Below, piece by piece: positions 1-55,453 of a stretch of 64,000 nt of DNA. The position numbers and the translations under genes are program-made. The DNA is taken from contig JACQCF010000024.1 in the NCBI GenBank assembly GCA_016201795.1, positions 2,115 through 66,114 on the forward strand, written 5' to 3'. Each line of letters begins with the position of its first letter. Positions within the stretch are counted from its first letter, which is position 1. The stretch is from Candidatus Omnitrophota bacterium. GTDB taxonomy: Bacteria; Omnitrophota; Gorgyraeia; Zapsychrales; Fredricksoniimonadaceae. The notes under the pieces were generated by a model, which was given only the letters and a program-made list of their open reading frames with translations, was not told where the DNA came from and did not search any database.

Positions 1-638
1 CTTACTACCTACTTGCGTCTATTATTTGTTTGTTAAGAACTATGAGGACTACTCTAAGATCAGAAGCATTTTTAACAGGAATTTTTTTAGGATTATTAGG
101 TTTCTCCAAAGACCATGGTATTTTATTGGCATTTTTATTGCTGATGCTATTTCTGATATATCTTATCAATAATCGTCTTTTTTTTCGTTTAGGGTCATTT
201 TTATTTTTAGGTATTTTAGTGGCGATGCCTTCAGTGGTCTTTGTAAAAATATTGATGTCTTCTAATAAACATGACCTTGTTTATAAATTTAATCTATTTA
301 ATATTCTCATTCTTAATCGATGGTCTTTTATATTGAAATATGTTTTAAAAGATTTACTTTTTAATTTTTATTGGGGAGGAATTTGGACTATTTTTGTCGT
401 AGCCCTGCTGGCCTATAGAAAATATTTTTTGAGAGAATTTATAATTCCTTTTGTATGTATGATTATTTTTTTAGGACTAATATTATTGGGATATGTTATC
501 AGTCAGTTTGATGTAAATTGGTGTTTATCTACAACTTGGGATCGAATATTATTTCAAGTATCGCCTCTTGCAGTATTTATCATGTTTCATTTATTTCACG
601 CTTTTGATAGTGCAATAAGTATTAGGAAAAGTGAATAA
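1..638 (+). CDS. polytopic integral membrane protein; no in-frame stop upstream, so the 5' end may lie before the window
   Basis: ORF 30..638 (TTG start). Very hydrophobic and aromatic/Leu/Ile/Phe-rich with multiple predicted TM segments. Confidence 0.4.
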   Translation, partial: YYLLASIICLLRTMRTTLRSEAFLTGIFLGLLGFSKDHGILLAFLLLMLFLIYLINNRLFFRLGSFLFLGILVAMPSVVFVKILMSSNKHDLVYKFNLFNILILNRWSFILKYVLKDLLFNFYWGGIWTIFVVALLAYRKYFLREFIIPFVCMIIFLGLILLGYVISQFDVNWCLSTTWDRILFQVSPLAVFIMFHLFHAFDSAISIRKSE

Positions 639-695
639 TTTTTTTGGACAGGCTTTTGTATCTTTGATACTCTTGTTATTTTTTATTATTTTTTT

Positions 696-2645
696 ATGTG
701 TCGTCTGATACAACAAGTTCCTTCTATGTTGGATAAATTTTATCAATCCCTTACTGAAGACACCGCTTTAAGGGTTTTATCTTTAAGCGCTGCTATCTAT
801 GCTCTGTTATTTTCTTTGTGGTGTTATCTAAAATATATTAGCTTTGCCTATTATGATTTTGATTTGGCGATTCATGATCAGGTTATTTGGAATATCGGAC
901 GGGGTAGCGCGTATAGCTCTATTTTGGGAATCAATTTTCTTGGCAACCATATTCATTTCATTTCTTTCCTGATTGCTCCTATTTATAAAGTTTTTAATCA
1001 CCCCCTGGCTTTATTATTTTTACAAACCATTGTTTTAGTGTTGGCTGTTTTCCCTCTGTATAAGACAGCAAAAATATTTTTGGGATACCGTTTGGCCTTG
1101 GTTGTGGGCATCATTTATTTGCTCTATCCGGGATTAGGGTATACCAATTTATTTGAATTCCACCCGACAGTATTTGCCACTTTTTTTCTTGCATGGATGT
1201 TTTACTATTTCTATCGATGCGAAACGGGATTGTTTGTCTTGTTTATGCTGTTGTCCATGCTGTGTCAAGAAAATATCGCGTTGATTATTATCGCTTTAGG
1301 AATTTATGGGCTATGCTCAAAAAGAAATAGGCTTTGCGCGTTGATTGCACTAGCATCAGGGTTAGTCTATTTTATCGTTTGTATAAAAATTCTTTTACCT
1401 TATTTCAATCGAGACACCATCCAATTTATAAGGATCTATGGAAAATTAGGAAACTCTTTCACAGAAATTCTTAAAACCATATTTACGCGCCCTTGGGAAG
1501 TATTTCACATTATTGTTCAACCCAAGAAGATACTGTACCTGAAAGATATTTTTTTGCCTTTGTCTTTTGTCCCTTTATTGAGCCCCTTGACTTTACTACC
1601 TTCTTTACCTTTATTGGCTCAACACCTTTTATCCCAACGTGGCAGTGAAATTACTTTATATTATCATTATACGGCGGAATTGATTTCACCGTTATTTTTA
1701 GCTTTTATTGGAGGTATAGCCAGAGCTCGGAATATTGTTTTTTTTAAAAGTAGGGAATGGTTTCTAACCGGAATCCTGTTACTGATGGCTTTAATAAGTA
1801 ATATTATATTAGGTCCTCATTTTGCTTTCTTTAAACAATACAAGACTCTTATACCGGATTATCGAGATGCACAAAAGGTTATGTTGATCAACAAGATTCC
1901 TCAGGACGCCTCTGCCGTTTCCACTTTTGAATTTTTGTCTCATTTATCCCATCGAACCGATTTATATTCTTTTCATCATGTTTATTCAGGATTTTTTACC
2001 TTATCCATGAAGCCGTATCATCTACCAGGTGATGTTCAATATGCTCTGATCGATTTCGATGATTTCCTCACGTTCAGAGGATTTTATGATCTTTATAATT
2101 ATCAGAAAATTGACGAGTTTCTTAAGCAAGGACGATGGGGCGTATTGGATGTGACAGATACCATGGTGTTATTTAAAAAGGGCATCGCAGATCAGCATCC
2201 CTTATTTACTTTTATAGAAGATTTCGTTAAACCTTCACAACAAGTTTCTTTTATTATTGATGACCGATTCCAATGGTACGGTTATGATTTTTATGAACAG
2301 CCGCAACATATTCGTCTTGTTTTCTATTGGAGGCCACTAAAATCAGTAAATAAAGATATTAATATATTCATAGATTTTATGGATCAAGAGGGGGAAGTTG
2401 TTTATAGGCAATACCGTCCTTTGTGTTATAGAATATGGCCGACTCAAGCATGGAAAAAGGCCCAAAATATTCAAGAATATCAATACATATCTATTCCTCC
2501 CCATTTGCAGGGACACATCAAGCGTCTGATGGTTGGTTTTTATGATTACAATACAGGGCAAAGACTTAAAACAACTTCTAAAGATTTTTTAGGCAGAATT
2601 GAGATAGGGCCGATTAACAAGGCGATGGAGGCGTATGTCCAGTAA
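696..2645 (+). CDS. large polytopic membrane protein (~430 aa TM region plus ~220 aa soluble C-terminal domain), GT-C-like/DUF2079-like candidate
   Basis: 649-aa ORF with many hydrophobic helices then a hydrophilic aromatic-rich tail. Overlaps the next gene by 11 bp. Family assignment is a guess. Confidence 0.45.
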   Translation: MCRLIQQVPSMLDKFYQSLTEDTALRVLSLSAAIYALLFSLWCYLKYISFAYYDFDLAIHDQVIWNIGRGSAYSSILGINFLGNHIHFISFLIAPIYKVFNHPLALLFLQTIVLVLAVFPLYKTAKIFLGYRLALVVGIIYLLYPGLGYTNLFEFHPTVFATFFLAWMFYYFYRCETGLFVLFMLLSMLCQENIALIIIALGIYGLCSKRNRLCALIALASGLVYFIVCIKILLPYFNRDTIQFIRIYGKLGNSFTEILKTIFTRPWEVFHIIVQPKKILYLKDIFLPLSFVPLLSPLTLLPSLPLLAQHLLSQRGSEITLYYHYTAELISPLFLAFIGGIARARNIVFFKSREWFLTGILLLMALISNIILGPHFAFFKQYKTLIPDYRDAQKVMLINKIPQDASAVSTFEFLSHLSHRTDLYSFHHVYSGFFTLSMKPYHLPGDVQYALIDFDDFLTFRGFYDLYNYQKIDEFLKQGRWGVLDVTDTMVLFKKGIADQHPLFTFIEDFVKPSQQVSFIIDDRFQWYGYDFYEQPQHIRLVFYWRPLKSVNKDINIFIDFMDQEGEVVYRQYRPLCYRIWPTQAWKKAQNIQEYQYISIPPHLQGHIKRLMVGFYDYNTGQRLKTTSKDFLGRIEIGPINKAMEAYVQ

Positions 2646-42605: not shown

Positions 42606-43046
42606 ATGACTAGGTTAACCAGGAAAAGAAGCGGTTTTACGCTCATTGAAATCATCGTTGTTTTGATTATCGTTGGTGTACTGGCAGCTATTGCTTTGCC
42701 GAACCTTTTTAGAAACGTGATTAAAAGCAGGGCCCAGGAAGCATTACAGGCTATGAGCCCATATAGAAGTGCTGTGGAAGGCTGTATTGTGGCGCATCCT
42801 GCAAGTACTAGTACGAGTTGTACTAATGCTATTTTGAATAATGGAAATTGGACCACGACTAATTTTACCTATACTCTTACTGCACCTGCAGCCGCCACGG
42901 ATACCGGTTATGCTATTTTGGCAACCGGTCAAGCAGCGGTTCCTGCCACCGATACTATAACGATAACGCGTGCCGCAGCTGCTTCTCCTGCAGTGGGGGC
43001 CGTTACTTGTACAGGCGCTGGTCAGGATTTCCTAGGCATTTGTTAG
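42606..43046 (+). CDS. pilA: type IV pilin (major pilin 1)
   Basis: Class III leader KRSG|FTLIEIIVVLIIVGVLAAIALPN. Strong SD aaggaga. Confidence 0.85.
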   Translation: MTRLTRKRSGFTLIEIIVVLIIVGVLAAIALPNLFRNVIKSRAQEALQAMSPYRSAVEGCIVAHPASTSTSCTNAILNNGNWTTTNFTYTLTAPAAATDTGYAILATGQAAVPATDTITITRAAAASPAVGAVTCTGAGQDFLGIC

Positions 43047-43067
43047 TTTTTGATAGTTCAAATCAAA

Positions 43068-43101
43068 AGGCAACATCGAAGTCTGATGTTGCCTTTTTTT
43101 A
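43068..43101 (+). terminator. rho-independent terminator after pilA1
   Basis: aggcaacatc gaagtct gatgttgcct followed by ttttttt. Confidence 0.8.
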
Positions 43102-43170
43102 AATACCGCGTTTGACATTTAGTTACTAAGGATATATACTTATCATAAATGATAAGGACACCTTCTTAGT

Positions 43171-43758
43171 ATGAAATTGTCTCGACTGGAACAACTGGTC
43201 AAACGTCTGTATTTTAGCAGCGCCGATGTCGGCTCATTGTTTGAGCTTGCACCGGCATCCGCCCATCTGTTATGCAGCCGCTATACGGCCAAAAACGTCT
43301 TTATCCGTCTTAAAAAAGACTGTTACACTTTAAGCCAAAGGTGGAATTCGTTGCAAGGCAAAGATATCTTTCGCCTGGCTAATATCCTTCAGGTGCCTTC
43401 TTATATTTCCCTCATGAGTGCTCTTTCTTTTTTTCAGGTCACCACTCAAATGCAACAAAATTATATCGAAAGCGTCGCCTTGAAAAGGTCGGTCACATTT
43501 CATATTAAAGAAACGGATTTTAAATTTTATAAAATTGCTCCTGCTTTCTATGGAGATTTCGTTCGTCAAGACGAATTTTTTATCGCCACCAAAGAAAAAG
43601 CTTTCCTGGACTGTGCTTATTTGACATCTTTCGGCAAGTATCGTTTTGATGTTGCCTCCATTGATATTGATAAATTAGATAAAAAGAAAATTAAACAGGG
43701 ACTTAAACCTTATCCTAAAAAAACCCAAATGTTGGTGGAGCGTTTATGCAAGATTTAA
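43171..43758 (+). CDS. AbiEi-family antitoxin (type IV toxin-antitoxin/abortive infection)
   Basis: N-terminal wHTH-like LYFSSADVGSLFELAPASAHLLCSRYTAKNVFIRLKKDCYTL. Overlaps the downstream AbiEii gene by 13 bp. Confidence 0.55.
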   Translation: MKLSRLEQLVKRLYFSSADVGSLFELAPASAHLLCSRYTAKNVFIRLKKDCYTLSQRWNSLQGKDIFRLANILQVPSYISLMSALSFFQVTTQMQQNYIESVALKRSVTFHIKETDFKFYKIAPAFYGDFVRQDEFFIATKEKAFLDCAYLTSFGKYRFDVASIDIDKLDKKKIKQGLKPYPKKTQMLVERLCKI

Positions 43759-44417
43759 TCAAACAGGAACAATTTGAAATCGAAGTTCTGCAATACCTTA
43801 ACAGTAAAAGACTGCTGGGCAACCTTGTCTTTGGCGGCGGAACCATGCTGCGGCTGTGCTGGGGCCTCAACCGTTTTTCGGTCGACCTCGACTTTTGGCT
43901 GATCAAAAAAGCCGATCCCAAGGGCCTCTTTAAAGGATTGAAAGAACATTTACAACGCTCCTATGCTATCCGGGACGCCGCTATGAAATTCCATACCCTG
44001 CTTTTTGAAATTAAATCTCCCCGGTATCCGCGGGCCTTAAAAATAGAAATCCGTAAAGAATTAAAGAACGTCGAAACCGAAGGGGCCATCGCCTATAGCC
44101 CGCACACCTCAATCCAGGTCATACTTAAAACCATCACTTTAGAGGAAATGATGAAGGCAAAAATAGAGGCCTTGGTCGAGCGAAAGGAAATCCGTGACGC
44201 CTTTGATATCGAATTTCTTTTTAAAAAGTCCATCGCCATTAAAGCCTCCCCCAGGGTGCTCAAAAATGCGCTCACCATCATTCAAGGGTTTACCGCGAAA
44301 GATTATACCGTGAAACTGGGAAGCCTATTGGAGGCATCACAAAGGAAGTATTATGCCTCCTCTCATTTTAAAATTCTGCAATCGGCTATCAACGAACAGC
44401 TGGCGGATAAGGCATGA
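43746..44417 (+). CDS. AbiEii/AbiGii nucleotidyltransferase toxin (DUF1814)
   Basis: LVFGGGTMLRLCWGLNRFSVDLDFWL matches the GGTAL..RFSEDIDF signature. Confidence 0.75.
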   Translation: MQDLIKQEQFEIEVLQYLNSKRLLGNLVFGGGTMLRLCWGLNRFSVDLDFWLIKKADPKGLFKGLKEHLQRSYAIRDAAMKFHTLLFEIKSPRYPRALKIEIRKELKNVETEGAIAYSPHTSIQVILKTITLEEMMKAKIEALVERKEIRDAFDIEFLFKKSIAIKASPRVLKNALTIIQGFTAKDYTVKLGSLLEASQRKYYASSHFKILQSAINEQLADKA

Positions 44418-44445
44418 AACCGACATTGGACATATGGTCACGTAG

Positions 44446-44474
44446 TTGACATCGTACAGAGGGAATGTTATATT
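44446..44474 (+). promoter_or_regulatory. sigma70-like promoter giving a leaderless or very short-leader pilA2 transcript
   Basis: TTGACA, 17 nt, TATATT, ending 6 nt before ATG 44481. No SD. Confidence 0.45.
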
Positions 44475-44480
44475 TTAAAT

Positions 44481-44939
44481 ATGAGAGCTAAAAGAGGCTT
44501 TACGTTAATTGAAATTATAGTAGTTCTTGTCATCGTTGGAGTGTTGGCTACGATAGCTGTTCCCAATTTTGTCAACATGATAAACCAGTCCTATGCCCAG
44601 GATGCGATGCGTAATCTCATGGCCATTTACGCGGCGCAGGTCAGTAATCAACAAAATAGCGGTAGTTATTGTACGGCAAGCTGTGCAAACACAGGGTCAA
44701 TTAATAGCAACTTAGGAGTAAGCATTGTCACCAGCGGTGGTACGGGTTACAATTGTAATGTTATATGTACTGGGGGGACGCAGTGCTGTATTGCAGCAGG
44801 TCAAGGTTCTTTTACGATGCAGCTTGTACTGAGCAATCCTGTTAATGTCGGTACAGCTCCTGTATATTGTGGCCCAGCCAATCCTCCTCCTACTAATCCC
44901 TGCTGTCAGGGAGGGAATGCTGGTGATACTTGTCCATAG
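44481..44939 (+). CDS. pilA: type IV pilin 2, cysteine-rich C-terminal domain
   Basis: KRG|FTLIEIIVVLVIVGVLATIAVPN leader. 10 Cys in the 110-aa head domain, including CC pairs. Confidence 0.8.
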   Translation: MRAKRGFTLIEIIVVLVIVGVLATIAVPNFVNMINQSYAQDAMRNLMAIYAAQVSNQQNSGSYCTASCANTGSINSNLGVSIVTSGGTGYNCNVICTGGTQCCIAAGQGSFTMQLVLSNPVNVGTAPVYCGPANPPPTNPCCQGGNAGDTCP

Positions 44940-44942
44940 CCT

Positions 44943-45305
44943 ATGTTAAAAATTAATACCCAGGGCATGAGTCTTCTCGAGGCATTTTTAGCCGCGGTTA
45001 TTTTTGTGATCTCGGTGGCCGCGGTTTTTACCACCCTCATCGGTACACGCCGGCCGGCGGTGAATAATGATCAGATGACCACTGCCGCGCTGGTGGCCAA
45101 AAATGTTTTGGAAGATTTGCGTTCTAAAGTCGATGCCCTCGATTACCCTACTGGCAATTTAAGTAGTGGTACTCATACACTTACCGGTCAAGGCCCATCA
45201 GGTCTTTACAACGTCTATTACAATGTAACTTTACTCAATGCCTTGGATCCTAATTCCGCCAGGCAGGTGAACTTGACGGTTACTTGGCCGGATGCCGTAC
45301 CATAA
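44943..45305 (+). CDS. minor pilin/pseudopilin
   Basis: G|MSLLEAFLAAVIFVISVAAVF prepilin-type N-terminus. Confidence 0.55.
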   Translation: MLKINTQGMSLLEAFLAAVIFVISVAAVFTTLIGTRRPAVNNDQMTTAALVAKNVLEDLRSKVDALDYPTGNLSSGTHTLTGQGPSGLYNVYYNVTLLNALDPNSARQVNLTVTWPDAVP

Positions 45306-45307
45306 AT

Positions 45308-45934
45308 ATGAAAATTCTTAGTCATTTGGCCCTCAGTCTCATGGAACTTATTGTCGCCTCCGTTGTCGTTATTATTATTTTACTCGGGATTGCCTCTTCA
45401 CAGCTTATTTTTCAGAGAAACAGCAATTATTTCGGCAGCAACTATTTTGTCAGCGCCATGACCGATAATATGCTTAACCATATCCTCACCAGCGCGTCCA
45501 TGGCCATTGGAAGCGGTATAGCGAATGATAAAGGAATTCTGATTGGTTTAGCAGAGACCGGGGATGCTAATACCTTCTGCATTCATCAGGATGTTCAAAA
45601 GACGTTAGGGCCGGGAGTCGATTATCCGGGGACGGTGAATGGCGACCTTTTTACTACGGCAAATCACCGCTGGCTCTGTTATACGCTTGATTCCACTACT
45701 CATCAGCTTACTTATTGCGACCGTACATATACTTCAGGTGCGGCCAAGTGCCCTCCCGGTAACGGTATCGTTTTAGGTACAGCATTGAATGTAGGCCCCC
45801 CCAGTTTCACAAATGGTCTATTTTCGATAGCTATTACCAATTGCATGGACCCAACCCAGAGTACCTGTGGGACCACCTCTAATCCCTCTGTCACAAAAAC
45901 AGGAAGCGTGTCACCCTCCGCGCACAGCCTTTAA
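45308..45934 (+). CDS. minor pilin/pseudopilin-like protein
   Basis: LALSLMELIVASVVVIIILLGIA N-terminus with Glu at +5. The track ORF starts at 45284. Confidence 0.45.
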   Translation: MKILSHLALSLMELIVASVVVIIILLGIASSQLIFQRNSNYFGSNYFVSAMTDNMLNHILTSASMAIGSGIANDKGILIGLAETGDANTFCIHQDVQKTLGPGVDYPGTVNGDLFTTANHRWLCYTLDSTTHQLTYCDRTYTSGAAKCPPGNGIVLGTALNVGPPSFTNGLFSIAITNCMDPTQSTCGTTSNPSVTKTGSVSPSAHSL

Positions 45935-47333: not shown

Positions 47334-47413
47334 AGGAGAGTCCGCCTCATCAAAATGACTATGTCATTTTGATGGGCGAGACTTCTCCGGAAGAATTTCT
47401 CTGAAATTCTTCC

Positions 47414-47501
47414 GGAGAGGTGGCTGAGCGGTTGAAAGCGGCGGTCTTGAAAACCGTTATGGGCGCATAGTCCATCGTGAGTTCGAATCTCACCCTCTCC
47501 G
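47414..47501 (+). tRNA. tRNA-Ser (anticodon TGA)
   Basis: ggagaggtggctgagcggttgaaagc..., anticodon loop cttgaaa, long variable arm, ttcgaat T-loop. Confidence 0.85.
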
Positions 47502-47518
47502 TTGTTATTCAAATCTTC

Positions 47519-48163
47519 ATGGGTCAAATTCGCAAAATAGGGGAACTTTATTATATTGAATTTTACGCCCGTGGGCTTTTGTATGCGCAGGCCGCCGGGC
47601 ATGACGAACAAGCCGCCCAAAAGATGCTTGAGCACATCGAAGCTAAAATTGCCCACGGCGAGGCCTTGACCGTTGTGCGAGAAATTGATTTGAGCGCTTT
47701 CTTTGAACAGTTTTTAGCTCATGCTAAAGAGCAGTTTTCCGCCAAAAGTATGGGGCGTTTTGTGCAAATGTGGGAGCATTGGAAGGCTTTTCTTCAAGAG
47801 ACTCATCCTCATCTTAATAGCTTATCGCAAATAACCCCATCGGTGGTGGAGTCGTATAAAACCATTTTAGTCAAAACCTTTAGACCCAAAGTGGTTAACC
47901 TGACGATTTTGCTTTTGCGGGAAGTTTTAGAATATGGGATCAACATTGGTTTTATCAATGATAATCCCACGCTGCACCTGTGCCTGTTGGAAATGCCCAG
48001 GCAGCCTGTCGGAAGAGGTCAACGTTTGAATATGGCTAAAGATTTGTTAGCGCGGGGGGTGGGTTTGGGAAAGGTTTGTCAAATTCTTAAACTTAAAGAT
48101 GTAGCCCAGATCATGTATTGGGCAAATTTCATTCCCTTGCAAAGGGAAGATGTGTATAATTGA
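47519..48163 (+). pseudogene. tyrosine-integrase remnant (N-terminal arm/core-binding region only, no catalytic domain)
   Basis: GELYYIEFYARG... parallels GRYYIDYRVNG... of the intact integrase at 54000. No R..HxxR..Y catalytic region. Abuts the tRNA-Ser 3' end. Confidence 0.5.
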
Positions 48164-48187
48164 CCCCCTAGTCTTTGTAATTTTTTG

Positions 48188-48274
48188 GAGAAGTGGCTGA
48201 GTGGTTGAAAGCGGCGGTCTCGAAAACCGTTATCCCGCTTTGCGGGATCGAAGGTTCGAATCCTTCCTTCTCCG
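48188..48274 (+). tRNA. tRNA-Ser (anticodon CGA)
   Basis: ggagaagtggctgagtggttgaaagc..., anticodon loop ctcgaaa, long variable arm. Confidence 0.85.
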
Positions 48275-48295
48275 CAGTTCATTTAAGATTAAATT

Positions 48296-48829: not shown

Positions 48830-51430
48830 ATGAAACTCAAATTCATTATTTTTAGCCTTTTATCGTTGATCTGTCCGGGCCTTGCCCTGGCTCATCAGCC
48901 CCAGATTTTTAAAACAGTTTTAGACAACGGCCTGACCGTACTCATCCAGGAGGTGCCCTCCAGTGAAGTTATTTCCATTGATGCCTGTGTGAAAACCGGC
49001 TCTGCCGTCGAAGACCGCTATTTGGGCACGGGTATTTCGCATTTTATCGAACATATGCTTTTTAAAGGGACCTCCAAACGACCGGTGGGGGCCATTGCCC
49101 GCGAGGTCCAAAGTTTGGGCGGTACCATCAATGCTTCTACGTCGCACGATTATACGATTTATACACTGGACTTACCCCAAGGTTTCTTGAGTCAGGGACT
49201 GGATATTATCAGCGATATGCTCACAAACTCGAGCTTTGATGCCGACCAAATGCAGAAAGAACGCAAAGTCATCCACGGGGAAATGCGTCTTTATCGTGAC
49301 CGTCCTCATCGGTTTTTAAGTGATTTGGTCTTTCGTCATGTCTATATCCGCCATCCCTACCAGCATCCGATGATCGGTTATCCGATGCTTTTTGATTCCA
49401 TTACTCACGACGAGCTTTATGGTTATTATCAAGAACGTTATATTCCTAACAATATGGTGCTTTCCGTCGCCGGGCCGCTGAAAGCGGATGAAATTTTGCC
49501 GTTGATTAAAGCAGCGTTTAAAGACTTTAAATCCCGTCCTTTTGTACAGCGCCATCTGCCTGCGGAGCCACCTCAATTATTTGGGCGTTATGAGGAGGTT
49601 TATTACCCGACACCATTGATGCATTTTTCTTTGGCTTACCAGGGAGTCAGCGTTTCGGATCCAGATTTGTACGCGCTGGATGTTTTATCCATGGCCTTGG
49701 GCCAGGGGGAGAGCTCGCGGCTTTACAAAGACGTCTACAAAACTAAACATTGGGTAGAGAGTATTTCTGCTTCGAATTTTACGCCGCAGGATCAAGGTTT
49801 TTTTGAAATTGAAGGGGTGATGTCGAAGGATCATCTTCCAGAGGTCCTAGCGTCCTTAAAGGCGACTATCGACGATATTCAAAAACGCGGTCTGTCAGCT
49901 GTAGAGTTAGAAAAAACCAAACGCCAGGTTTCGGCCCAATTTATCTTTGGCAATCAAACCGCCCCCAGCCTGGCCTATCGGGCCGCTACTGATGAAGCAA
50001 TGACCGCAGATGCCAATTTTTCCCGTCATTATGTTGAGCAGGTGAAGCAAGTCACCAACCAAGATATTCAAAGAGTAGCCAACCGTTATTTACAGGATTC
50101 TCATTTAAGCGTGACCGTGTTAAAACCTAAAGCCATGGCCCCTGCGCCGTCAGTGCAGCCACCAGCCGCCGCGCCCGAGAAAATCAAAAAAGTTGTTTTG
50201 GATAATGGCTTAACTATTCTTCTGCACGAAGATCACAGTGTGGCCGTGGTTGCGGTCAAGCTGCTGATGTATGGCGGTACAAGGCAAGAAGACCCTGCCC
50301 GGGGCGGTATTGCTCATTTAACCGCTGATGTCTGGACTAAAGGCACAGGGCGTATGTCCGAAGAACAAATAGCCCAGGCCATGGAACAAAGGGGCGGTTC
50401 ATTAGACAGTTCTTCAGGACACAATACCATGACGGTTAGTATGGATGTTTTATCCGATGACCTGCTTTTTGCTTTGGATCTGCTGGAGGATGTGGTCAAA
50501 AATCCTTCCATGCCACCGGAGGCTATTGACCGCCAGCGTCAAGCGATGTTGACGGCCATGCAAGAGCGCGACGATGATATTATGGACGCTTCTTCCAGGG
50601 CTTTACTTGAAACGCTTTACTTAAAACACCCTTTACGTCTTGATCCTTTAGGTACCAAAGAAAGTCTTTCTAAAATGACTCGTGGGGACATCATCGATTT
50701 TTATCATCGTCTGATGTATGGAAATAATATGGTGATAGCTGTTTTTGGGGACTGTGATTCACCAAAAGTTTTACAGGATTTGAAGAAAAAGTTTGGCTCT
50801 TTAAAGAAAGGACAGGTACAGGTTAAATTATTTTCTGAACCGCCTCCCGAGAAGACCAGATTCAAAGATTTGCGGATGGACAAAGAGCAGGCTTTATTGA
50901 TGATGGCTTTCCGGGCACCAGCCTTCAGGGACCCGGACCGTTTTGGGATGGAAGTGCTGGACACGATTTTAGGAGCCAGTTTAAGCGGAAGGCTTTTTGT
51001 GAAAATCCGCGACCAGTTGGGCCAGGCCTACACCATAAGCTCCAGTTATAGCCCTGATCTAGATACGGGGACTTTTACGCTTTATGTGTTGACGAAGCCG
51101 GATAAAATTGATAGCGTTAAAGGCATTATAATCCAAGAGTTGGAAGATTTAAGAACGAGGGATGTGTCGGCCGAAGAGTTGCAAAGCGCCAAGAATTATT
51201 TAAAGGGTACATTCAAAGGGGAATTATTGACCAACAGCGCCTTGGCTTCCATGAGCAGTCTTGATGAGCTCTACGGTCTGGGTTATAATTTTTACCGTCA
51301 ATTCGACGGGGATGTGGATCAAATTACGGTCCAAGATGTTCGTCGTATGGCCAATCAATATTTAGATATTTCCAAAGCGGCGGTCGTTATTACAAAACCT
51401 AAAACAGCGGACACGAACACTCATGAATAG
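48830..51430 (+). CDS. secreted two-module M16 (pitrilysin/insulinase family) zinc peptidase
   Basis: Signal peptide. Inverted zinc motif HFIEH (HxxEH) in module 1. Second inactive-type M16 module. Confidence 0.8.
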   Translation: MKLKFIIFSLLSLICPGLALAHQPQIFKTVLDNGLTVLIQEVPSSEVISIDACVKTGSAVEDRYLGTGISHFIEHMLFKGTSKRPVGAIAREVQSLGGTINASTSHDYTIYTLDLPQGFLSQGLDIISDMLTNSSFDADQMQKERKVIHGEMRLYRDRPHRFLSDLVFRHVYIRHPYQHPMIGYPMLFDSITHDELYGYYQERYIPNNMVLSVAGPLKADEILPLIKAAFKDFKSRPFVQRHLPAEPPQLFGRYEEVYYPTPLMHFSLAYQGVSVSDPDLYALDVLSMALGQGESSRLYKDVYKTKHWVESISASNFTPQDQGFFEIEGVMSKDHLPEVLASLKATIDDIQKRGLSAVELEKTKRQVSAQFIFGNQTAPSLAYRAATDEAMTADANFSRHYVEQVKQVTNQDIQRVANRYLQDSHLSVTVLKPKAMAPAPSVQPPAAAPEKIKKVVLDNGLTILLHEDHSVAVVAVKLLMYGGTRQEDPARGGIAHLTADVWTKGTGRMSEEQIAQAMEQRGGSLDSSSGHNTMTVSMDVLSDDLLFALDLLEDVVKNPSMPPEAIDRQRQAMLTAMQERDDDIMDASSRALLETLYLKHPLRLDPLGTKESLSKMTRGDIIDFYHRLMYGNNMVIAVFGDCDSPKVLQDLKKKFGSLKKGQVQVKLFSEPPPEKTRFKDLRMDKEQALLMMAFRAPAFRDPDRFGMEVLDTILGASLSGRLFVKIRDQLGQAYTISSSYSPDLDTGTFTLYVLTKPDKIDSVKGIIIQELEDLRTRDVSAEELQSAKNYLKGTFKGELLTNSALASMSSLDELYGLGYNFYRQFDGDVDQITVQDVRRMANQYLDISKAAVVITKPKTADTNTHE

Positions 51431-52781
51431 GATCAAAACACTGGAATTAGAAGTCCTGGTTTTAGCCAAATTAAAAGGGAGAATGGCTTTGCTGGCCTCC
51501 CAAGAAGATCGTGAGCTGATGGTGGCCTCTGCCCTGGAACAAGTGTTAAAGGAGGACCATTCCCAAGAGTTTAAACCAGACCTTTCTTCCGTCGCAGAGA
51601 AAACACGTTTTATTAAAGGGTTTCTTTCGTATGGCGTTATCGAAGAGCTTTTATGTGATCCGGACATCGAAGATATTATCATCAATGCTTTAAAGCCCCT
51701 TTATATTCACCACGCGCAAAAAGGCTTTATCGCCACCGACAAAAAATTCTCCTCCCATCGGGAATTGGAGGTTTTTATTTTGAAGCTCGTTGTTTTTTCT
51801 GGCCGCCATGGTTATAACAAAATCGCCAATTTAGAATTAGCGAATTTAGCCGGGCGGGTCAATATCGTGGATACTCCTCTGGGGCCGCAGTTAACCATTA
51901 GTAAGGCCAAAATTGATCCGTTAAGTATTATCGATTTAATCAAATGCGGCAGCATGAGTTATGAGGTGGCAGGACAGTTGTGGCTTTATATGGAAGGTTT
52001 ATCTATTCGTCCGGCGAATGTGATTATTGCTGGCGGCCCGGGAACCGGCAAAACGACCCTGTTAAATGCCATGTTGAGTTTTATTCCGCCTAAAGACCGC
52101 TTGGTGGTTATTGAAGATACGCTGGAACTCAATACATTTCTGGAAGACAGCTGTTCTCGTCTGGAAACGGATGAAGATTTAGACCTTTCGGATTTGGTCA
52201 AAAACAGCCTGCGCATGCGCCCGGAGAGGGTGATTGTCGGTGAGGTGCGCGGGGCTGAAGCGCGGGATATGATCACGGCCGTTAATATCGGCAAATACTG
52301 TATGAGTACCATCCACGCATTAAGCGCAAGGGAGGCCATTTTACGTTTGGGCAATGAACCCATGAATGTGCCGGATATGCTCATTAATCTTATTGATGTT
52401 TTTATTATTCTTAAACGCTATCATGTGGACGGAAAACTCTTTCGCGTGGTGGAGGAGGTTTCCGAGACCAGCGGCATGGAAAACACAAAAATTTTATTGT
52501 CGCAGGTTTTTAAATACAATTATGAGCAAAAACGCGTGGTAGCGGTCTCGCCGAGCACAATTTACCGCGACCGCCTGGCCCGGGAGACTGGTCTGACGCC
52601 CAGGGAGATTATTGCCGAAACCTGGATCCGTGCCAGTGTGCTTAAGAATTTAGCCGATCGTGGTGTGAATACCATGAAAGAAGTCGCTATGTTCTGTCAT
52701 TATTACACCCACAATCCCGCGGAAGCCATGCATAAAATCGGTTTGGACCGCCAGCGCATGTTGAAGGAAATCAACAAATAA
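51423..52781 (+). CDS. CpaF/TadA/FlaI-like type II/IV secretion-family ATPase (orphan)
   Basis: N-domain GVIEELLCDPDIEDIIIN...GRVNIVDTPLGPQLTISK, Walker A GGPGTGKTT, Asp box RPERVIVGEVRGAEA, His box MSTIHALSAREAILRL. Overlaps the M16 stop by 8 bp. Confidence 0.75.
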   Translation: MNRIKTLELEVLVLAKLKGRMALLASQEDRELMVASALEQVLKEDHSQEFKPDLSSVAEKTRFIKGFLSYGVIEELLCDPDIEDIIINALKPLYIHHAQKGFIATDKKFSSHRELEVFILKLVVFSGRHGYNKIANLELANLAGRVNIVDTPLGPQLTISKAKIDPLSIIDLIKCGSMSYEVAGQLWLYMEGLSIRPANVIIAGGPGTGKTTLLNAMLSFIPPKDRLVVIEDTLELNTFLEDSCSRLETDEDLDLSDLVKNSLRMRPERVIVGEVRGAEARDMITAVNIGKYCMSTIHALSAREAILRLGNEPMNVPDMLINLIDVFIILKRYHVDGKLFRVVEEVSETSGMENTKILLSQVFKYNYEQKRVVAVSPSTIYRDRLARETGLTPREIIAETWIRASVLKNLADRGVNTMKEVAMFCHYYTHNPAEAMHKIGLDRQRMLKEINK

Positions 52782-53790: not shown

Positions 53791-53880
53791 GGAGAGGTGG
53801 CAGAGTGGCTGAATGCAACTGCCTGCTAAGCAGTTGGCCGGGCAACTGGCCCCCGGGTTCGAATCCCGGCCTCTCCGCCA
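53791..53880 (+). tRNA. tRNA-Ser (anticodon GCT), CCA encoded
   Basis: ggagaggtggcagagtggctgaatgc..., anticodon loop ctgctaa, long variable arm. Confidence 0.85.
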
Positions 53881-53999
53881 GATTTTTGTTGTGTTCTGTA
53901 ACATAATGTAATTAAATGAGTTAGATACATCTTAACTCCCCTTTAAGATGGTGGTGCCCAAAATGCGCCCATGTTAAAACCATCAACAAGGAGGGAGTT

Positions 54000-55034
54000 A
54001 TGGCAAGTCTAAGATTCAGAAGCGGGCGGTACTACATTGATTATCGGGTCAATGGCCAAAGGTTTCGCAAGGCCACCGGTAAATCGAAACGGATCGCTGA
54101 ACTCGCACTCAAAGACATTGAAGTAAAAATTGAACGCAATGACCTTGGGTTCATAGAAAAAGACGTTGAGTTAAACAAGCTCTTCGAAGAATTCCTCGCC
54201 TACGGCATCACCCACCACGCACCCAAAACACAAAAACGCTACAAAGGCATTCTCGATAATTTTAAAGAATTCCTCAAGAAGTTTCCGTTTATCAAAAAAG
54301 CTTCCCAATTGGATTCAAAATTTTTTGAAGACTATCAAACCTTCCGCAAAGTCAAAGGCGTTAGCAATAAAACAGTCAATATAGAACTCATCTGTTTGAA
54401 GGCCATGTTTAATCTGGCCATCAAATGGAATTACATTTGGGCCAGTCCCACCAAAAATGTCACGCCATTAAAAGAAGAAAACAACAAGAAGCCGCGATTT
54501 TTGAGCAAGGAGGAGTGCAAGATTTTGCTTGAGAATTGTGATGAATGGTTTTATCCAATTCTTTATACTTTTCTGCACACGGGCATGCGTAAAAGTGAAT
54601 TGGAGAATTTGACATGGAGTGATGTTGATTTCGAACGTAAAAAAATCAAAATCCGCTACAAGGATGATTGGAGTCCTAAAACATCCGAGCGCGAAATCCC
54701 CATCAGTAATGGCCTTTTTGAGTTGTTAAAGAAGCGGAAGGAAACCAACCAAATCCGCTCATGCCCGTATGTCTTTCACTTAAAAGGGGACAAGATAGAG
54801 GCCAATTATTTAAGGAAAAAATATCTGCCTTTAACCAAACAGTGCGGCTTCCCGGATGTAACTAAAATCCACAGCCTGCGCCATACTTTTGCCAGCCACC
54901 TGGTCATGAGCGGGGTGGACTTACCAACAGTCAAGAAGCTCATGGGCCATGCGGATATTGAAACAACCATGATCTATTCCCACCTGGCCGATGAGCATGT
55001 GGATAAGGCGGTGGAAAAATTGAGTTTAATTTAA
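54000..55034 (+). CDS. tyrosine recombinase/phage-type integrase
   Basis: C-terminal HSLRHTFASHLVMSGVDLPTVKKLMGHADIETTMIYSHL carries the R-HxxR-Y catalytic residues. Confidence 0.85.
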   Translation: MASLRFRSGRYYIDYRVNGQRFRKATGKSKRIAELALKDIEVKIERNDLGFIEKDVELNKLFEEFLAYGITHHAPKTQKRYKGILDNFKEFLKKFPFIKKASQLDSKFFEDYQTFRKVKGVSNKTVNIELICLKAMFNLAIKWNYIWASPTKNVTPLKEENNKKPRFLSKEECKILLENCDEWFYPILYTFLHTGMRKSELENLTWSDVDFERKKIKIRYKDDWSPKTSEREIPISNGLFELLKKRKETNQIRSCPYVFHLKGDKIEANYLRKKYLPLTKQCGFPDVTKIHSLRHTFASHLVMSGVDLPTVKKLMGHADIETTMIYSHLADEHVDKAVEKLSLI

Positions 55035-55099
55035 TATGAAAAGTTCTCTTGACTATACAAGTTATATGTTGTACACTTTTAGTGTACGGAAAGGCAACA

Positions 55100-55453
55100 A
55101 TGTTAAAGTCTATCTATTATTTTGTTGATATTCGTGGGAATAATCCGGTTAAGGAATTCATTAATAATCTGCCATTGAAAGAGCAAACGAAAATTGATGC
55201 CTATATTGAGGAGCTTAAAAATCAAGGCCATAATTTGCGCAGACCCATGGCTGACTATATAAGGGAAGGAATATATGAATTAAGGCCGGGTCATCATCGA
55301 GTATTTTATTTTTTCTTTTATCGAGAGAGCGCTGTTCTGCTCCATGCGATAAGGAAAAAAACGGACAAAATACCATCGAATGATTTAGATTTATGCCTTA
55401 AAAGAAAAAAAGAATTTGAACATCTTTGGGATATTAATAAACTTGATTCTTAA
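55100..55453 (+). CDS. Gp49/HigB-like RelE/ParE-family toxin
   Basis: MLKSIYYFVDIRGNNPVKEFINNLPLKEQTKIDAYIEEL...GIYELRPGHHRVFYFF...AVLLHAIRKKTDKIP pattern. Confidence 0.7.
   Translation: MLKSIYYFVDIRGNNPVKEFINNLPLKEQTKIDAYIEELKNQGHNLRRPMADYIREGIYELRPGHHRVFYFFFYRESAVLLHAIRKKTDKIPSNDLDLCLKRKKEFEHLWDINKLDS

What the first reader, a model, noticed from the sequence alone, without database searches (positions are those of the whole stretch)
43171..44417. AbiEi/AbiEii abortive-infection toxin-antitoxin module inserted between two major-pilin genes
A DUF1814 nucleotidyltransferase toxin (GGTMLRL...RFSVDLDF) and an overlapping AbiEi-like antitoxin sit exactly between pilA1 (which has its own terminator) and pilA2 (which has its own promoter). 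Type IV pili are common phage receptors. A phage-defence or addiction module embedded in the pilin locus suggests the pilin region is a recombination and defence hot spot, or that the TA pair stabilises a variable pilin cassette.
Basis: partly seen in the sequence, partly recalled or inferred. Interest (0 to 1): 0.6.

Follow-up and report, generated by a model that had tools for sequence, protein, structure and literature searches.

The report
AbiE toxin–antitoxin cassette between pilin genes
A self-contained 1.3-kb AbiEi/AbiEii toxin–antitoxin (phage-defence-type) cassette has been acquired in the gap between two type IV pilin genes of an uncultured Omnitrophota bacterium; the module is an ordinary member of a very large known family, and only its position, seen again in a second, unrelated pilin locus, is unusual.

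Summary
ORFs 43171-43758 (195 aa) and 43746-44417 (223 aa) overlap by 13 nt and lie between two prepilin genes.

**Toxin.** It is a DUF1814/AbiEii nucleotidyltransferase: Pfam PF08843 66.9 bits against a cut-off of 22.5, a full-length PADLOC hit of 309 bits, all four catalytic motifs, and a fold like JHP933/MenT3.

**Antitoxin.** It is an AbiEi/COG5340-type winged-helix protein: PADLOC E 3e-23, and 22 of 30 homologues hit PF13338. The window protein itself misses Pfam and NCBIfam thresholds.

**Acquired cassette.** It has its own promoter and palindromic operator. It is absent from the pilB-pilC-pilin clusters of about 20 Omnitrophota relatives. Its 53-67% homologues sit in unrelated neighbourhoods, so it was acquired horizontally.

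**New finding.** A groundwater contig (L093) carries the same cassette: 95% DNA identity over exactly 1,331 bp, window 43096-44426. There it also lies between a pilin terminator and a pilin promoter, but the flanking genes are non-syntenic and the pilins only 39-53% identical. dN/dS of 0.14-0.26 shows both genes are maintained.

**Verdict.** This is a new member of a known kind, and NCBI already annotates the toxin. A functional link to pili or phage receptors is untested. The recurring pilin-spacer position is the only mildly novel aspect.

The parts
42606..43046 (+). pilin 1 (146 aa prepilin; first pilin after pilC, probable major pilin). It is a neighbour of the cassette, not part of it.
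   Evidence: PF07963 N_methyl E 1.6e-8 and NCBIfam IV_pilin_GFxxxE. It is 42-56% identical to the first pilins after pilC in relatives.
43065..43104 (+). Intrinsic terminator of pilin 1: 13-bp perfect stem, 7-nt loop, U-run. It is native to the pilin locus.
   Evidence: Inverted repeat I4. dG -18.6 kcal/mol, z -6.0. A homologous hairpin lies in the L008 pilin spacer.
43096..44426 (+). The discrete 1,331-bp AbiE cassette: promoter, operator, abiEi and abiEii. It runs from 16 nt upstream of the -35 box to 9 nt past the abiEii stop codon.
   Evidence: Ungapped 95.0% DNA identity to L093 1396-2726, with homology ending abruptly at both ends. The 67 mismatches are spread evenly.
43112..43140 (+). 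Cassette promoter, TTGACA-17-TATACT.
   Evidence: Matches 11 of 12 consensus positions. The same architecture lies upstream of abiEi in homologous modules L084, L085 and L087, and with a TTGGCA -35 variant in L090. Only 2 of 75 mismatches to L093 in the non-coding leader.
43139..43156 (.). Perfect palindrome CTTATCAT-AA-ATGATAAG overlapping the end of the -10 box. It is the candidate AbiEi operator.
   Evidence: Palindromes with 6-13-nt arms lie at the equivalent position in the four other modules examined. S. agalactiae AbiEi binds inverted repeats in its own promoter (PMC3985639).
43171..43758 (+). abiEi: 195-aa antitoxin and autorepressor of COG5340/AbiEi type, with an N-terminal winged helix-turn-helix.
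   Evidence: PADLOC AbiEi PDLC02241 E 3.3e-23 over residues 1-179, plus 16 other AbiEi models. 22 of 30 homologues hit PF13338. The AF2 model has an H-H-H-strand-strand N-terminus, and the top PDB hit is AbiEi 6y8q, though weak at E 0.042. dN/dS 0.14 against L093.
43746..44417 (+). abiEii: 223-aa DUF1814 nucleotidyltransferase toxin.
   Evidence: PF08843 66.9 bits, PADLOC PDLC02330 308.7 bits. Motif residues G30-G31, R43, S45, D47, D49, K139, R146 and R150-D151-x-x-D154 are all present; all are invariant in 32 homologues except G30, which is replaced in a few. AF2 pLDDT 94.8. Foldseek hits JHP933 at E 6e-8 and MenT3/TglT at E 1e-5. dN/dS 0.26.
44446..44474 (+). Promoter of pilin 2, TTGACA-17-TG-TATATT. 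It lies outside the cassette and is native to the pilin locus.
   Evidence: Matches 11 of 12 positions with an extended -10. The same promoter type lies upstream of pilins in relatives and in L093.
44481..44939 (+). pilin 2: 152-aa prepilin with 10 Cys. It is followed at 4 nt by minor-pilin-like genes 44943-45305 and 45284-45934. It is a neighbour of the cassette.
   Evidence: PF07963 E 8.9e-9. Orthologues lie just before the minor pilins in relatives. Cys count.

Best explanation
**What it is.** A horizontally acquired, self-contained AbiE-type toxin-antitoxin cassette of 1,331 bp (window 43096-44426). It sits in the non-coding spacer between the terminator of the first pilin gene and the promoter of the next pilin operon, in the type IV pilus cluster of a Candidatus Omnitrophota bacterium.

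**Shown here.**
- The identity of both genes.
- Intact catalytic motifs in the toxin.
- The cassette's own promoter plus a palindrome.
- A conserved 13-nt gene overlap.
- Absence from relatives' pilus clusters.
- Sharp cassette boundaries.
- Purifying selection on both genes.

**Inferred by homology to S. agalactiae AbiE and M. tuberculosis MenAT.**
- AbiEi binds the palindrome at the -10 box and represses the bicistronic operon.
- AbiEi also contacts AbiEii and induces auto-phosphorylation of the toxin. The likely acceptor is S45, the positional equivalent of T65 in S. agalactiae AbiEii. This keeps the toxin inactive.
- When antitoxin control is lost, for example during phage infection or after loss of the cassette, unphosphorylated AbiEii uses NTPs to add nucleotides to tRNA 3' acceptor ends. 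Translation is blocked and growth arrested, which gives abortive infection or post-segregational addiction.

**Position.** The placement between pilins is most simply a tolerated landing site in a terminator-promoter gap of a locus that is variable in this phylum.
For: **Gene identity.**
- HMM assignments.
- 2,719 AbiEii and 786 AbiEi homologues.
- The motif residues hG[G/S]-x15-DhD, R43, K139, R146 and RDxxD are present; alignment A1 shows all invariant except G30, which is replaced in a few. They match motifs I-IV, whose mutation abolishes toxicity in S. agalactiae (PMC3985639).
- R43-x-S45-x-D47-x-D49 mirrors R63/T65/D67/D69, where T65 is the phospho-acceptor (bioRxiv 10.64898/2026.01.19.700257).
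- The AbiEii model has pLDDT 94.8 and its fold matches DUF1814 toxins.

**Module organisation.**
- AbiEi lies directly upstream in 84 of 89 homologous loci; the other 5 contigs are too short to tell.
- The gene sizes and the 13-nt overlap are identical in the called genes.
- A conserved promoter plus palindrome is present in all five modules compared.

**Acquisition.**
- The cassette is absent from about 20 Omnitrophota pil clusters.
- Homologues sit in unrelated contexts.
- Homology to L093 is a sharp 1,331-bp block at 95%.
- dN/dS is 0.14 and 0.26, and the promoter differs at 2 of 75 positions.
- The same junctions are seen in two sequencing runs for the window type and in several independent assemblies for the L093 type.
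Against: - The window's AbiEi gets no Pfam hit (none at E <= 0.1) and scores only 20 bits on the NCBIfam AbiEi equivalog against a cut-off of 150.
- Its structural match to AbiEi 6y8q is weak: E 0.042, TM 0.32, model pLDDT 78.
- Toxicity, neutralisation, phosphorylation, tRNA targeting and operator binding are all inferred from systems that share less than 20-30% identity.
- Not all COG2253/COG5340 pairs use phosphorylation; MenT4 does not.
- S. agalactiae AbiE gave no protection against 32 coliphages in E. coli, so phage defence is not guaranteed.
- The mechanism that moves a cassette with no recombinase and no terminal repeats is unknown. No target-site duplication was found.
- No cassette-free allele of this exact locus was found.
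Confidence: 0.82

Rival explanations
1. Pilus-linked defence. The cassette is in pilin spacers for a functional reason, not by accident. One version is that it provides abortive infection against pilus-dependent phages. Another is that it acts as an addiction module that stabilises or hitch-hikes with exchangeable pilin cassettes. In either case the pilin region would be a true recombination and defence hot spot.
For: - The only two known members of this cassette clade at 94% identity or more are both between a pilin terminator and a pilin promoter. The genetic backgrounds differ: pilC-pilin1 in the window and TPR protein-pilin in L093, with pilins 39-53% identical.
- Pilin copy number varies from 1 to 5 in relatives.
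- Other small mobile genes occupy or follow the pil clusters of 4 of about 20 relatives: AAA_14/DUF4143 in L004, DUF2442 in L009, a transposase in L012 and TraL-like genes in L003.
- TA pairs and type IV pilus genes are both listed among laterally transferred cargo in Omnitrophota (bioRxiv 10.64898/2026.05.20.726742).
Against: - None of 88 other loci carrying 52-67% homologues has a pilin next to the module, so there is no family-wide association.
- Two occurrences could stem from a single ancestral insertion.
- No baseline rate of such insertions elsewhere in these genomes was measured.
- No phage or receptor data exist for this uncultured lineage.
- No literature precedent was found.
Confidence: 0.15
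2. History variant. The cassette was inserted once and is static. The pilin transcription units (promoter, pilin, terminator) on either side are what recombine and get replaced, which leaves the sharp homology boundaries. The alternative is two independent insertions of a mobile cassette.
For: - It explains parsimoniously why both copies lie between pilins, without a targeting mechanism.
- Pilin genes are highly divergent and vary in copy number among relatives.
- Homology ends at the end of a terminator on the left and before a pilin promoter on the right.
- The cassette has no recombinase, terminal repeats or target duplication.
Against: - The gene upstream of the pilin differs: pilC in the window and a TPR membrane protein in L093. 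The pilC-pilin adjacency is conserved in about 20 relatives, so the two sites may be different loci.
- The boundaries coincide with the functional unit, 16 nt before the -35 box and 9 nt after the stop codon, as expected if the cassette itself is the exchanged unit.
- More distant modules clearly occupy many different sites.
Confidence: 0.4
3. Regulatory co-option. With no terminator after abiEii, transcription from the AbiEi-repressed promoter reads into pilin 2 and the minor-pilin genes. AbiEi would then also modulate pilus gene expression.
For: - No terminator-like structure lies between 44417 and 44481 (z +1.5).
- The same holds for the arrangement in L093.
- AbiEi homologues can regulate other genes, as in M. 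huakuii (PMC8436566) and S. suis.
Against: - Pilin 2 has its own strong consensus promoter of the type conserved in relatives that lack the cassette.
- An autorepressed TA promoter would contribute little transcription.
- There are no expression data.
Confidence: 0.08
4. The two ORFs are conserved pilus accessory genes, or a decaying non-functional remnant.
For: They are co-oriented with the pilus genes, and their GC content is only mildly atypical: AbiEi 0.39 and AbiEii 0.45 against a window value of 0.45.
Against: - They are absent from all about 20 related pil clusters.
- They have strong AbiE HMM hits.
- Their reading frames and motifs are intact.
- dN/dS is 0.14-0.26.
Confidence: 0.02

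Closest known systems
AbiE (AbiEi/AbiEii) of Streptococcus agalactiae and Lactococcus lactis
   Same: - A bicistronic operon with the antitoxin first and overlapping genes.
- A DUF1814 (PF08843) nucleotidyltransferase toxin with motifs I-IV.
- A Ser/Thr two residues before the DhD motif.
- A winged-HTH COG5340-type antitoxin.
- Inverted repeats at an autoregulated sigma-70-type promoter (PMC3985639; bioRxiv 10.64898/2026.01.19.700257).
   Different: - The toxin is shorter: 223 aa, with S45 against T65 at the acceptor position, so it lacks about 20 N-terminal residues.
- The overlap is 13 nt rather than 4 nt.
- The operator is a single 8-2-8 palindrome at the -10 box rather than two 23-bp repeats spanning the promoter.
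- Sequence identity is too low for phmmer to connect either protein to the S. agalactiae structures.
- No phenotype has been tested.
MenAT systems of Mycobacterium tuberculosis (MenT3/TglT Rv1045 with MenA3; MenT1; MenT4)
   Same: - The toxin fold is the same: Foldseek E 1e-5 and probability 1.0 to 6j7q, 6y5u and 8xhr.
- A weak profile hit to MenT4 6y56 covers the GG...DLDF motif.
- The antitoxin partner is of COG5340 type.
- The expected mechanism is tRNA 3'-end nucleotidylation controlled by antitoxin-induced toxin phosphorylation.
   Different: - Identity is 13-15%.
- The window toxin is about 65 residues shorter.
- Nucleotide and tRNA specificity are unknown.
- MenT4 shows that phosphorylation control is not universal.
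JHP933 of Helicobacter pylori (PDB 4o8s/4ok0), a DUF1814 nucleotidyltransferase
   Same: It is the closest solved structure by both sequence and fold: profile E 2e-7 and Foldseek E 6e-8, TM about 0.5. Its length is similar (232 aa).
   Different: Identity is 19-20%. JHP933 lies in a plasticity zone, and its partner and function are not established (the last point is from my own knowledge).
Accessory genes in type IV pilin loci (for example the Pseudomonas aeruginosa pilA allele groups with tfp accessory genes next to tRNA-Thr)
   Same: Pilin alleles are highly divergent, and non-core genes are lodged immediately next to the major pilin in a variable locus (from my own knowledge; not tested here).
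   Different: Those accessory genes modify or assist the pilin. Here the lodged genes are a TA/defence cassette with no pilus-related domain.

Membership tests
AbiEii / DUF1814 nucleotidyltransferase toxins (PF08843, COG2253) | Significant match to the family HMM above the curated threshold. | tested here: met
   PF08843 66.9 bits against a gathering score of 22.5, E 3.3e-18. PADLOC AbiEii PDLC02330 308.7 bits over residues 1-218 of 219 profile positions. There is no NCBIfam hit, because no matching model exists there.
AbiEii / DUF1814 nucleotidyltransferase toxins (PF08843, COG2253) | Motif I hG[G/S] and motif II DhD spaced by about 15 residues with an Arg inside motif II; motif III (Lys...Arg); motif IV (+DxxD). 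These are the residues whose mutation abolishes toxicity (PMC3985639). | tested here: met
   F29-G30-G31, x15, D47-L-D49 and R43; K139...R146; R150-D151-A-F-D154. These were read from the sequence; all are invariant in 32 homologues except G30, which is replaced in a few.
AbiEii / DUF1814 nucleotidyltransferase toxins (PF08843, COG2253) | Pol-beta-like NTase fold with a C-terminal helical domain, as in MenT3 and JHP933. | tested here: met
   AF2 model with pLDDT 94.8 and pTM 0.90. The top 12 PDB hits are all JHP933 or MenT3/TglT, E 6e-8 to 9e-5, probability 1.0.
AbiEii / DUF1814 nucleotidyltransferase toxins (PF08843, COG2253) | Phospho-acceptor Ser/Thr at the position of S. agalactiae T65 or MenT3 S78 (type VII control). 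| tested here: inconclusive
   S45 occupies the R-x-[ST]-x-D-h-D position and is invariant in A1. The equivalence is by motif register only, and phosphorylation itself is not testable here.
AbiEii / DUF1814 nucleotidyltransferase toxins (PF08843, COG2253) | Growth inhibition on expression, neutralised by the cognate antitoxin; tRNA 3'-end nucleotidylation. | not testable with these tools
   This requires expression and biochemical assays.
AbiEi / COG5340 antitoxin-repressors (PF13338 AbiEi_4; NCBIfam NF047376) | Match to the family HMMs. | tested here: inconclusive
   - Pfam gives no hit for the window protein.
- NCBIfam TAA_AbiEi scores 20.3 bits against a cut-off of 150.
- PADLOC AbiEi PDLC02241 gives E 3.3e-23 over residues 1-179, and 16 further AbiEi models also hit.
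- 22 of 30 full-length homologues (48-61% identical) hit PF13338, best E 5e-8.
AbiEi / COG5340 antitoxin-repressors (PF13338 AbiEi_4; NCBIfam NF047376) | Two-domain architecture: an N-terminal winged helix-turn-helix and a C-terminal antitoxin domain (PDB 6Y8Q). | tested here: inconclusive
AbiEi / COG5340 antitoxin-repressors (PF13338 AbiEi_4; NCBIfam NF047376) | Encoded immediately upstream of, and overlapping, a DUF1814 toxin gene in one operon. | tested here: met
   The overlap is 13 nt in the window. The same 195-aa gene and the same 13-nt overlap appear. AbiEi lies upstream in 84 of 89 loci.
AbiEi / COG5340 antitoxin-repressors (PF13338 AbiEi_4; NCBIfam NF047376) | Negative autoregulation through inverted repeats in its own promoter. 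| tested here: inconclusive
   A perfect 8-2-8 palindrome lies at 43139-43156, abutting the -10 box. Palindromes occupy the same position in four other modules. The leader has only 2 of 75 substitutions against a dS of 0.12-0.18. DNA binding and repression are not testable here.
Abortive-infection phage defence system | Reduces phage propagation by killing or arresting infected cells. | not testable with these tools
   The host is uncultured and has no known phages. Note that S. agalactiae AbiE did not protect E. coli against 32 phages.

The most novel reading that the evidence does not exclude
The 1.33-kb AbiE cassette is specifically associated with pilin-pilin spacers in Omnitrophota. It would either insert preferentially just downstream of pilin terminators or be co-selected and exchanged together with variable pilin units. 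Receptor (pilin) diversification and an abortive-infection or addiction module would then form one evolutionary unit, a minimal 'defence cassette in a receptor locus' that moves without any recombinase of its own.
Probability: 0.12. Interest if true: 0.6.

Novelty: new member of a known kind. Interest (0 to 1): 0.3.

Why it matters
As a gene pair this is routine. AbiE/DUF1814-COG5340 modules number in the thousands, and NCBI already labels this toxin. Three things are modestly useful.

1. The antitoxin is annotated only as 'hypothetical protein' and can now be named.
2. The comparison with L093 delimits a complete, minimal, recombinase-free TA cassette to the base pair (1,331 bp: promoter, operator and two genes). 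It also shows that the cassette is under purifying selection in two different hosts. This is a clean natural example of how such modules travel as units.
3. Both known copies sit between a pilin terminator and a pilin promoter in loci whose pilins are highly divergent. If this proved non-random, it would link surface-receptor variation and abortive-infection cassettes in a poorly known, possibly host-attached phylum.

None of this overturns current understanding.

Tried and rejected
- **Cassette-free allele.** Exact-protein look-ups of pilin 1, pilin 2, AbiEi and AbiEii found only contigs with the same junctions. The L093-type contigs are all 100% identical to each other. No empty site was found.
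- **Target-site duplication or terminal inverted repeats.** None was found at the cassette ends.
- **Compositional foreignness.** It is weak. AbiEi GC is 0.39 and AbiEii 0.45, against a window value of 0.448 with sd 0.042 among long ORFs. Composition is therefore not used as evidence.
- **Direct sequence link to solved AbiEi/AbiEii structures.**
  - phmmer and a profile search for AbiEi found nothing meaningful.
  - AbiEii reached only JHP933 and, marginally, MenT4.
  - Fold comparison was needed for the rest.
- **Phage or plasmid carriage.** There were no viral-contig relatives and no phage hit. Plasmid hits were only about 31% identical.
- **ncRNA.** Rfam found none in 40-50 kb apart from two tRNAs.
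- **Second AbiE pair in the window.** None was found.
- **Remnant of the nearby tRNA-Ser/integrase island.** This idea was rejected, because core genes (pilin 2, the minor pilins and serS) lie between them.
- **Literature.** A search for AbiE in pilin loci found no relevant paper.
Full report
**1. Observation**

The window holds two co-oriented ORFs at exactly the stated coordinates: 43171-43758 (195 aa) and 43746-44417 (223 aa). They overlap by 13 nt, and a GGAG lies 7 nt before the second ATG.

The ORFs are flanked by 42606-43046 (146 aa) and 44481-44939 (152 aa). Both carry the prepilin N-terminal methylation motif: PF07963 E 1.6e-8 and 8.9e-9, plus NCBIfam IV_pilin_GFxxxE.

- Upstream are PilM-like, secretin, PilB (PF00437, 463 bits) and PilC (PF00482) genes.
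- Downstream are two minor-pilin-like ORFs, then serS and tRNA-Ser.

A perfect 13-bp hairpin with a U-run follows pilin 1 at 43065-43104. Its dG is -18.6 kcal/mol, z -6.0.

Two near-consensus sigma-70 promoters are present:
- one before abiEi at 43112-43140, matching 11 of 12 positions;
- one before pilin 2 at 44446-44474, matching 11 of 12 positions with an extended -10.

No terminator follows abiEii.

The only loose point is the phrase 'two major pilins'. The two proteins share just their first 45 residues. Pilin 2 is followed at 4 nt by minor-pilin-like genes, so it may head a minor-pilin operon.

**2. Identity of the genes**

*Toxin.*
- It scores 66.9 bits on Pfam PF08843 (AbiEii/DUF1814; gathering score 22.5).
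- It scores 308.7 bits over the full length of PADLOC model PDLC02330.
- It has 2,719 database homologues at E <= 1e-5.
- In an alignment of 32 homologues (A1), the residues that define the family are invariant, except G30, which is replaced in a few. They are G30-G31, x15, D47-L-D49 (motifs I and II, with the family-specific R43), K139...R146 (motif III) and R150-D151-x-x-D154 (motif IV).
- These are the positions whose mutation abolishes toxicity and GTP binding in S. agalactiae AbiEii (PMC3985639).
- S45 lies two residues before D47. This matches the phospho-acceptor T65 relative to D67 in S. agalactiae AbiEii (bioRxiv 10.64898/2026.01.19.700257).
- An AlphaFold model (pLDDT 94.8) finds only DUF1814 proteins at the top of the PDB: JHP933 at E 6e-8 and MenT3/TglT at E 1e-5.

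*Antitoxin.* The call is less direct.
- Pfam gives no hit, and NCBIfam's AbiEi equivalog scores 20 bits against a cut-off of 150.
- PADLOC AbiEi models hit strongly, with the best at E 3.3e-23 over residues 1-179.
- 22 of 30 full-length homologues (48-61% identical) carry PF13338 AbiEi_4.
- The model shows a winged-helix N-terminus. Its best PDB match is AbiEi 6y8q, but weakly (E 0.042).
- The strongest argument is the pairing. In 84 of 89 homologous loci an AbiEi homologue lies immediately upstream; the other five contigs are too short to tell. In the loci with called genes, the gene sizes and the 13-nt overlap are identical.

*Public annotation.* NCBI already annotates the toxin as 'AbiEii/AbiGii toxin family protein' (MBI3602499.1). 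It annotates the antitoxin only as 'hypothetical protein HY209_06365'.

**3. A self-contained cassette with its own control region**

I compared the 160 nt upstream of abiEi in five modules: the window, L084, L085, L087 and L090. The layout is a -35 box (TTGACA, or TTGGCA in L090), a roughly 17-nt spacer and a TATATA-like -10 box. It is overlapped or followed by a palindrome with 6-13-nt arms.

In the window the palindrome is CTTATCAT-AA-ATGATAAG at 43139-43156. This matches what is known for AbiEi, which represses its promoter by binding inverted repeats (PMC3985639; PMC7319586).

**4. It is an insert**

The organism is a Candidatus Omnitrophota. The best PilC relatives are 67-68% identical.

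In about 20 Omnitrophota loci the order pilB-pilC-[1-5 pilins]-minor pilins is conserved, and none contains an AbiEi or AbiEii homologue.

In relatives, pilin genes are commonly separated by a terminator and a TTGACA-N17-TGTTAnnnT promoter. The L008 spacer even carries a hairpin homologous to the window's. The cassette therefore sits in a terminator-promoter gap that is native to the locus.

Homologous modules (53-67% identity) occur in Omnitrophota, Nitrospirae, Smithellaceae and others. Their neighbourhoods are unrelated: carbamoyl-phosphate synthase, a CCA/polyA-polymerase-family gene, inside the 3' end of manC, and among AAA_14/DUF4143 genes. This indicates horizontal spread.

Composition is only mildly atypical.

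**5. The same cassette in a second pilin locus**

A metagenome scan found L093 (OBEQ011717048.1, groundwater), whose AbiEi and AbiEii are 94% identical to the window's.

- At DNA level the similarity is one ungapped block of 1,331 bp at 95.0% (window 43096-44426 = L093 1396-2726). It stops abruptly 16 nt upstream of the -35 box and 9 nt past the abiEii stop codon.
- In L093 the block also lies between a pilin with its own terminator (dG -19.1) and a pilin with the conserved pilin promoter.
- The flanks are otherwise unrelated. The upstream pilin is 39-52% identical. The gene before it is a TPR membrane protein rather than pilC, and that protein has no close homologue in the window.
- The L093 arrangement is assembled identically in several independent samples, so it is not a chimera.
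- Within the block the 67 mismatches are evenly spread. dN/dS is 0.14 for abiEi and 0.26 for abiEii. The leader has 2 of 75 changes, and no motif residue differs. Both genes and the control region are therefore maintained by selection.
- In a collection of about 15 billion proteins, the 90% cluster holds only these two alleles. The next relative is 67% identical.

A 5% divergence cannot turn into unalignable sequence at a sharp edge by drift alone, so recombination defined the edges. There are two possibilities:
- the cassette was inserted independently at two analogous sites; or
- it was inserted once, and the pilin units on both sides were later replaced.

I cannot decide between these. The different upstream genes favour the first. 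Parsimony and the lack of any recombinase, terminal repeat or target duplication favour the second.

**6. Hot-spot idea**

Support is suggestive only.
- Pilin copy number varies from 1 to 5.
- Four of about 20 relatives carry other small mobile-type genes in or right after the pil cluster:
  - AAA_14/DUF4143 between pilC and the pilin in L004;
  - DUF2442 between pilB and pilC in L009;
  - an HTH/rve transposase after the pilin in L012;
  - TraL-like genes after the pilins in L003.

Against it:
- None of 88 other AbiE-family loci is pilin-adjacent.
- No background rate was measured.
- No paper in the library links AbiE to pilin loci.

**7. Mechanism**

This is inferred from S. agalactiae AbiE and the M. 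tuberculosis MenAT systems.
- AbiEi represses the operon at the palindrome.
- AbiEi induces auto-phosphorylation of AbiEii, probably at S45.
- De-repressed, unphosphorylated AbiEii adds nucleotides to tRNA 3' ends and arrests translation. The result is abortive infection or addiction.

None of this can be tested here. Whether it defends against phage is open even for the model system.

**8. Verdict**

This is a genuine, intact AbiE-type cassette. It is a new member of a very large known family and its toxin is already annotated. The notable points are a well-delimited 1.33-kb unit and a recurrent, unexplained position between pilin genes. Interest is low to moderate.

Noticed in passing
L087 4300-5800 (also L088, L089): A homologous AbiE module sits at the 3' end of a manC-like gene. 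A diverged duplicate (about 85% identical) of the last ~50 nt of manC flanks the module, and a 33-aa MannoseP_isomer fragment ORF is left downstream. This suggests the module arrived together with a replacement 3' gene end, for example by one-sided homologous recombination.
   Followed up: partly
L085 995-3528 and L086: In a Nitrospirae contig the AbiE module is followed 43 nt later by a PolyA_pol/CCA-adding-enzyme-family gene (PF01743). This may be coincidence, but DUF1814 toxins act on tRNA 3' ends, which that enzyme family repairs.
   Followed up: no
L084 4426-7610: An Omnitrophota contig carries two different AbiEi/AbiEii pairs and a DUF2442 gene within 3.2 kb, forming a small TA cluster.
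   Followed up: no
L004 3067-4230; L009 7429-7767; L012 11597-12691; L003 12366-12680: Other relatives have unrelated small mobile-type genes in or next to their pil clusters:
- AAA_14/DUF4143 ATPase between pilC and the pilin in L004;
- DUF2442 between pilB and pilC in L009;
- an HTH/rve transposase after the pilin in L012;
- a TraL-like protein after the pilins in L003.

In L090 the same AAA_14/DUF4143 gene type lies immediately upstream of an AbiE module.
   Followed up: partly
window 47413-48275: Two tRNA-Ser genes (tga and cga) bracket a 228-aa ORF (47477-48163, GTG start). The ORF overlaps the first tRNA by 26 nt and has only a weak Phage_int_SAM_5 N-terminal domain hit (E 5e-4) with no catalytic domain. 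It is possibly a truncated integrase remnant.
   Followed up: partly
window 53791-55453: tRNA-Ser(gct) is followed directly by an intact tyrosine integrase (54000-55034, PF00589 E 7.5e-31) and a Gp49/HigB-like toxin-type gene (55049-55453). This is probably the start of an integrated element, about 10 kb from the AbiE cassette.
   Followed up: no
window 44481-44939: Pilin 2 is unusually Cys-rich, with 10 Cys in 152 aa, mostly in the C-terminal half including CC pairs. Pilin 1 has 4. It also gave a spurious weak Gallidermin hit.
   Followed up: no
window 1-2500: The first ~2.5 kb of the window has markedly low GC (0.30-0.36 in 1-kb windows against a window mean of 0.448). It was not examined.
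   Followed up: no
window 51423-52781: A second T2SSE-family ATPase (452 aa, PF00437 E 1.4e-31, possibly PilT-like) lies about 6 kb downstream of the pilin genes, separated from the main pil cluster by serS, tRNAs and an M16 peptidase.
   Followed up: no
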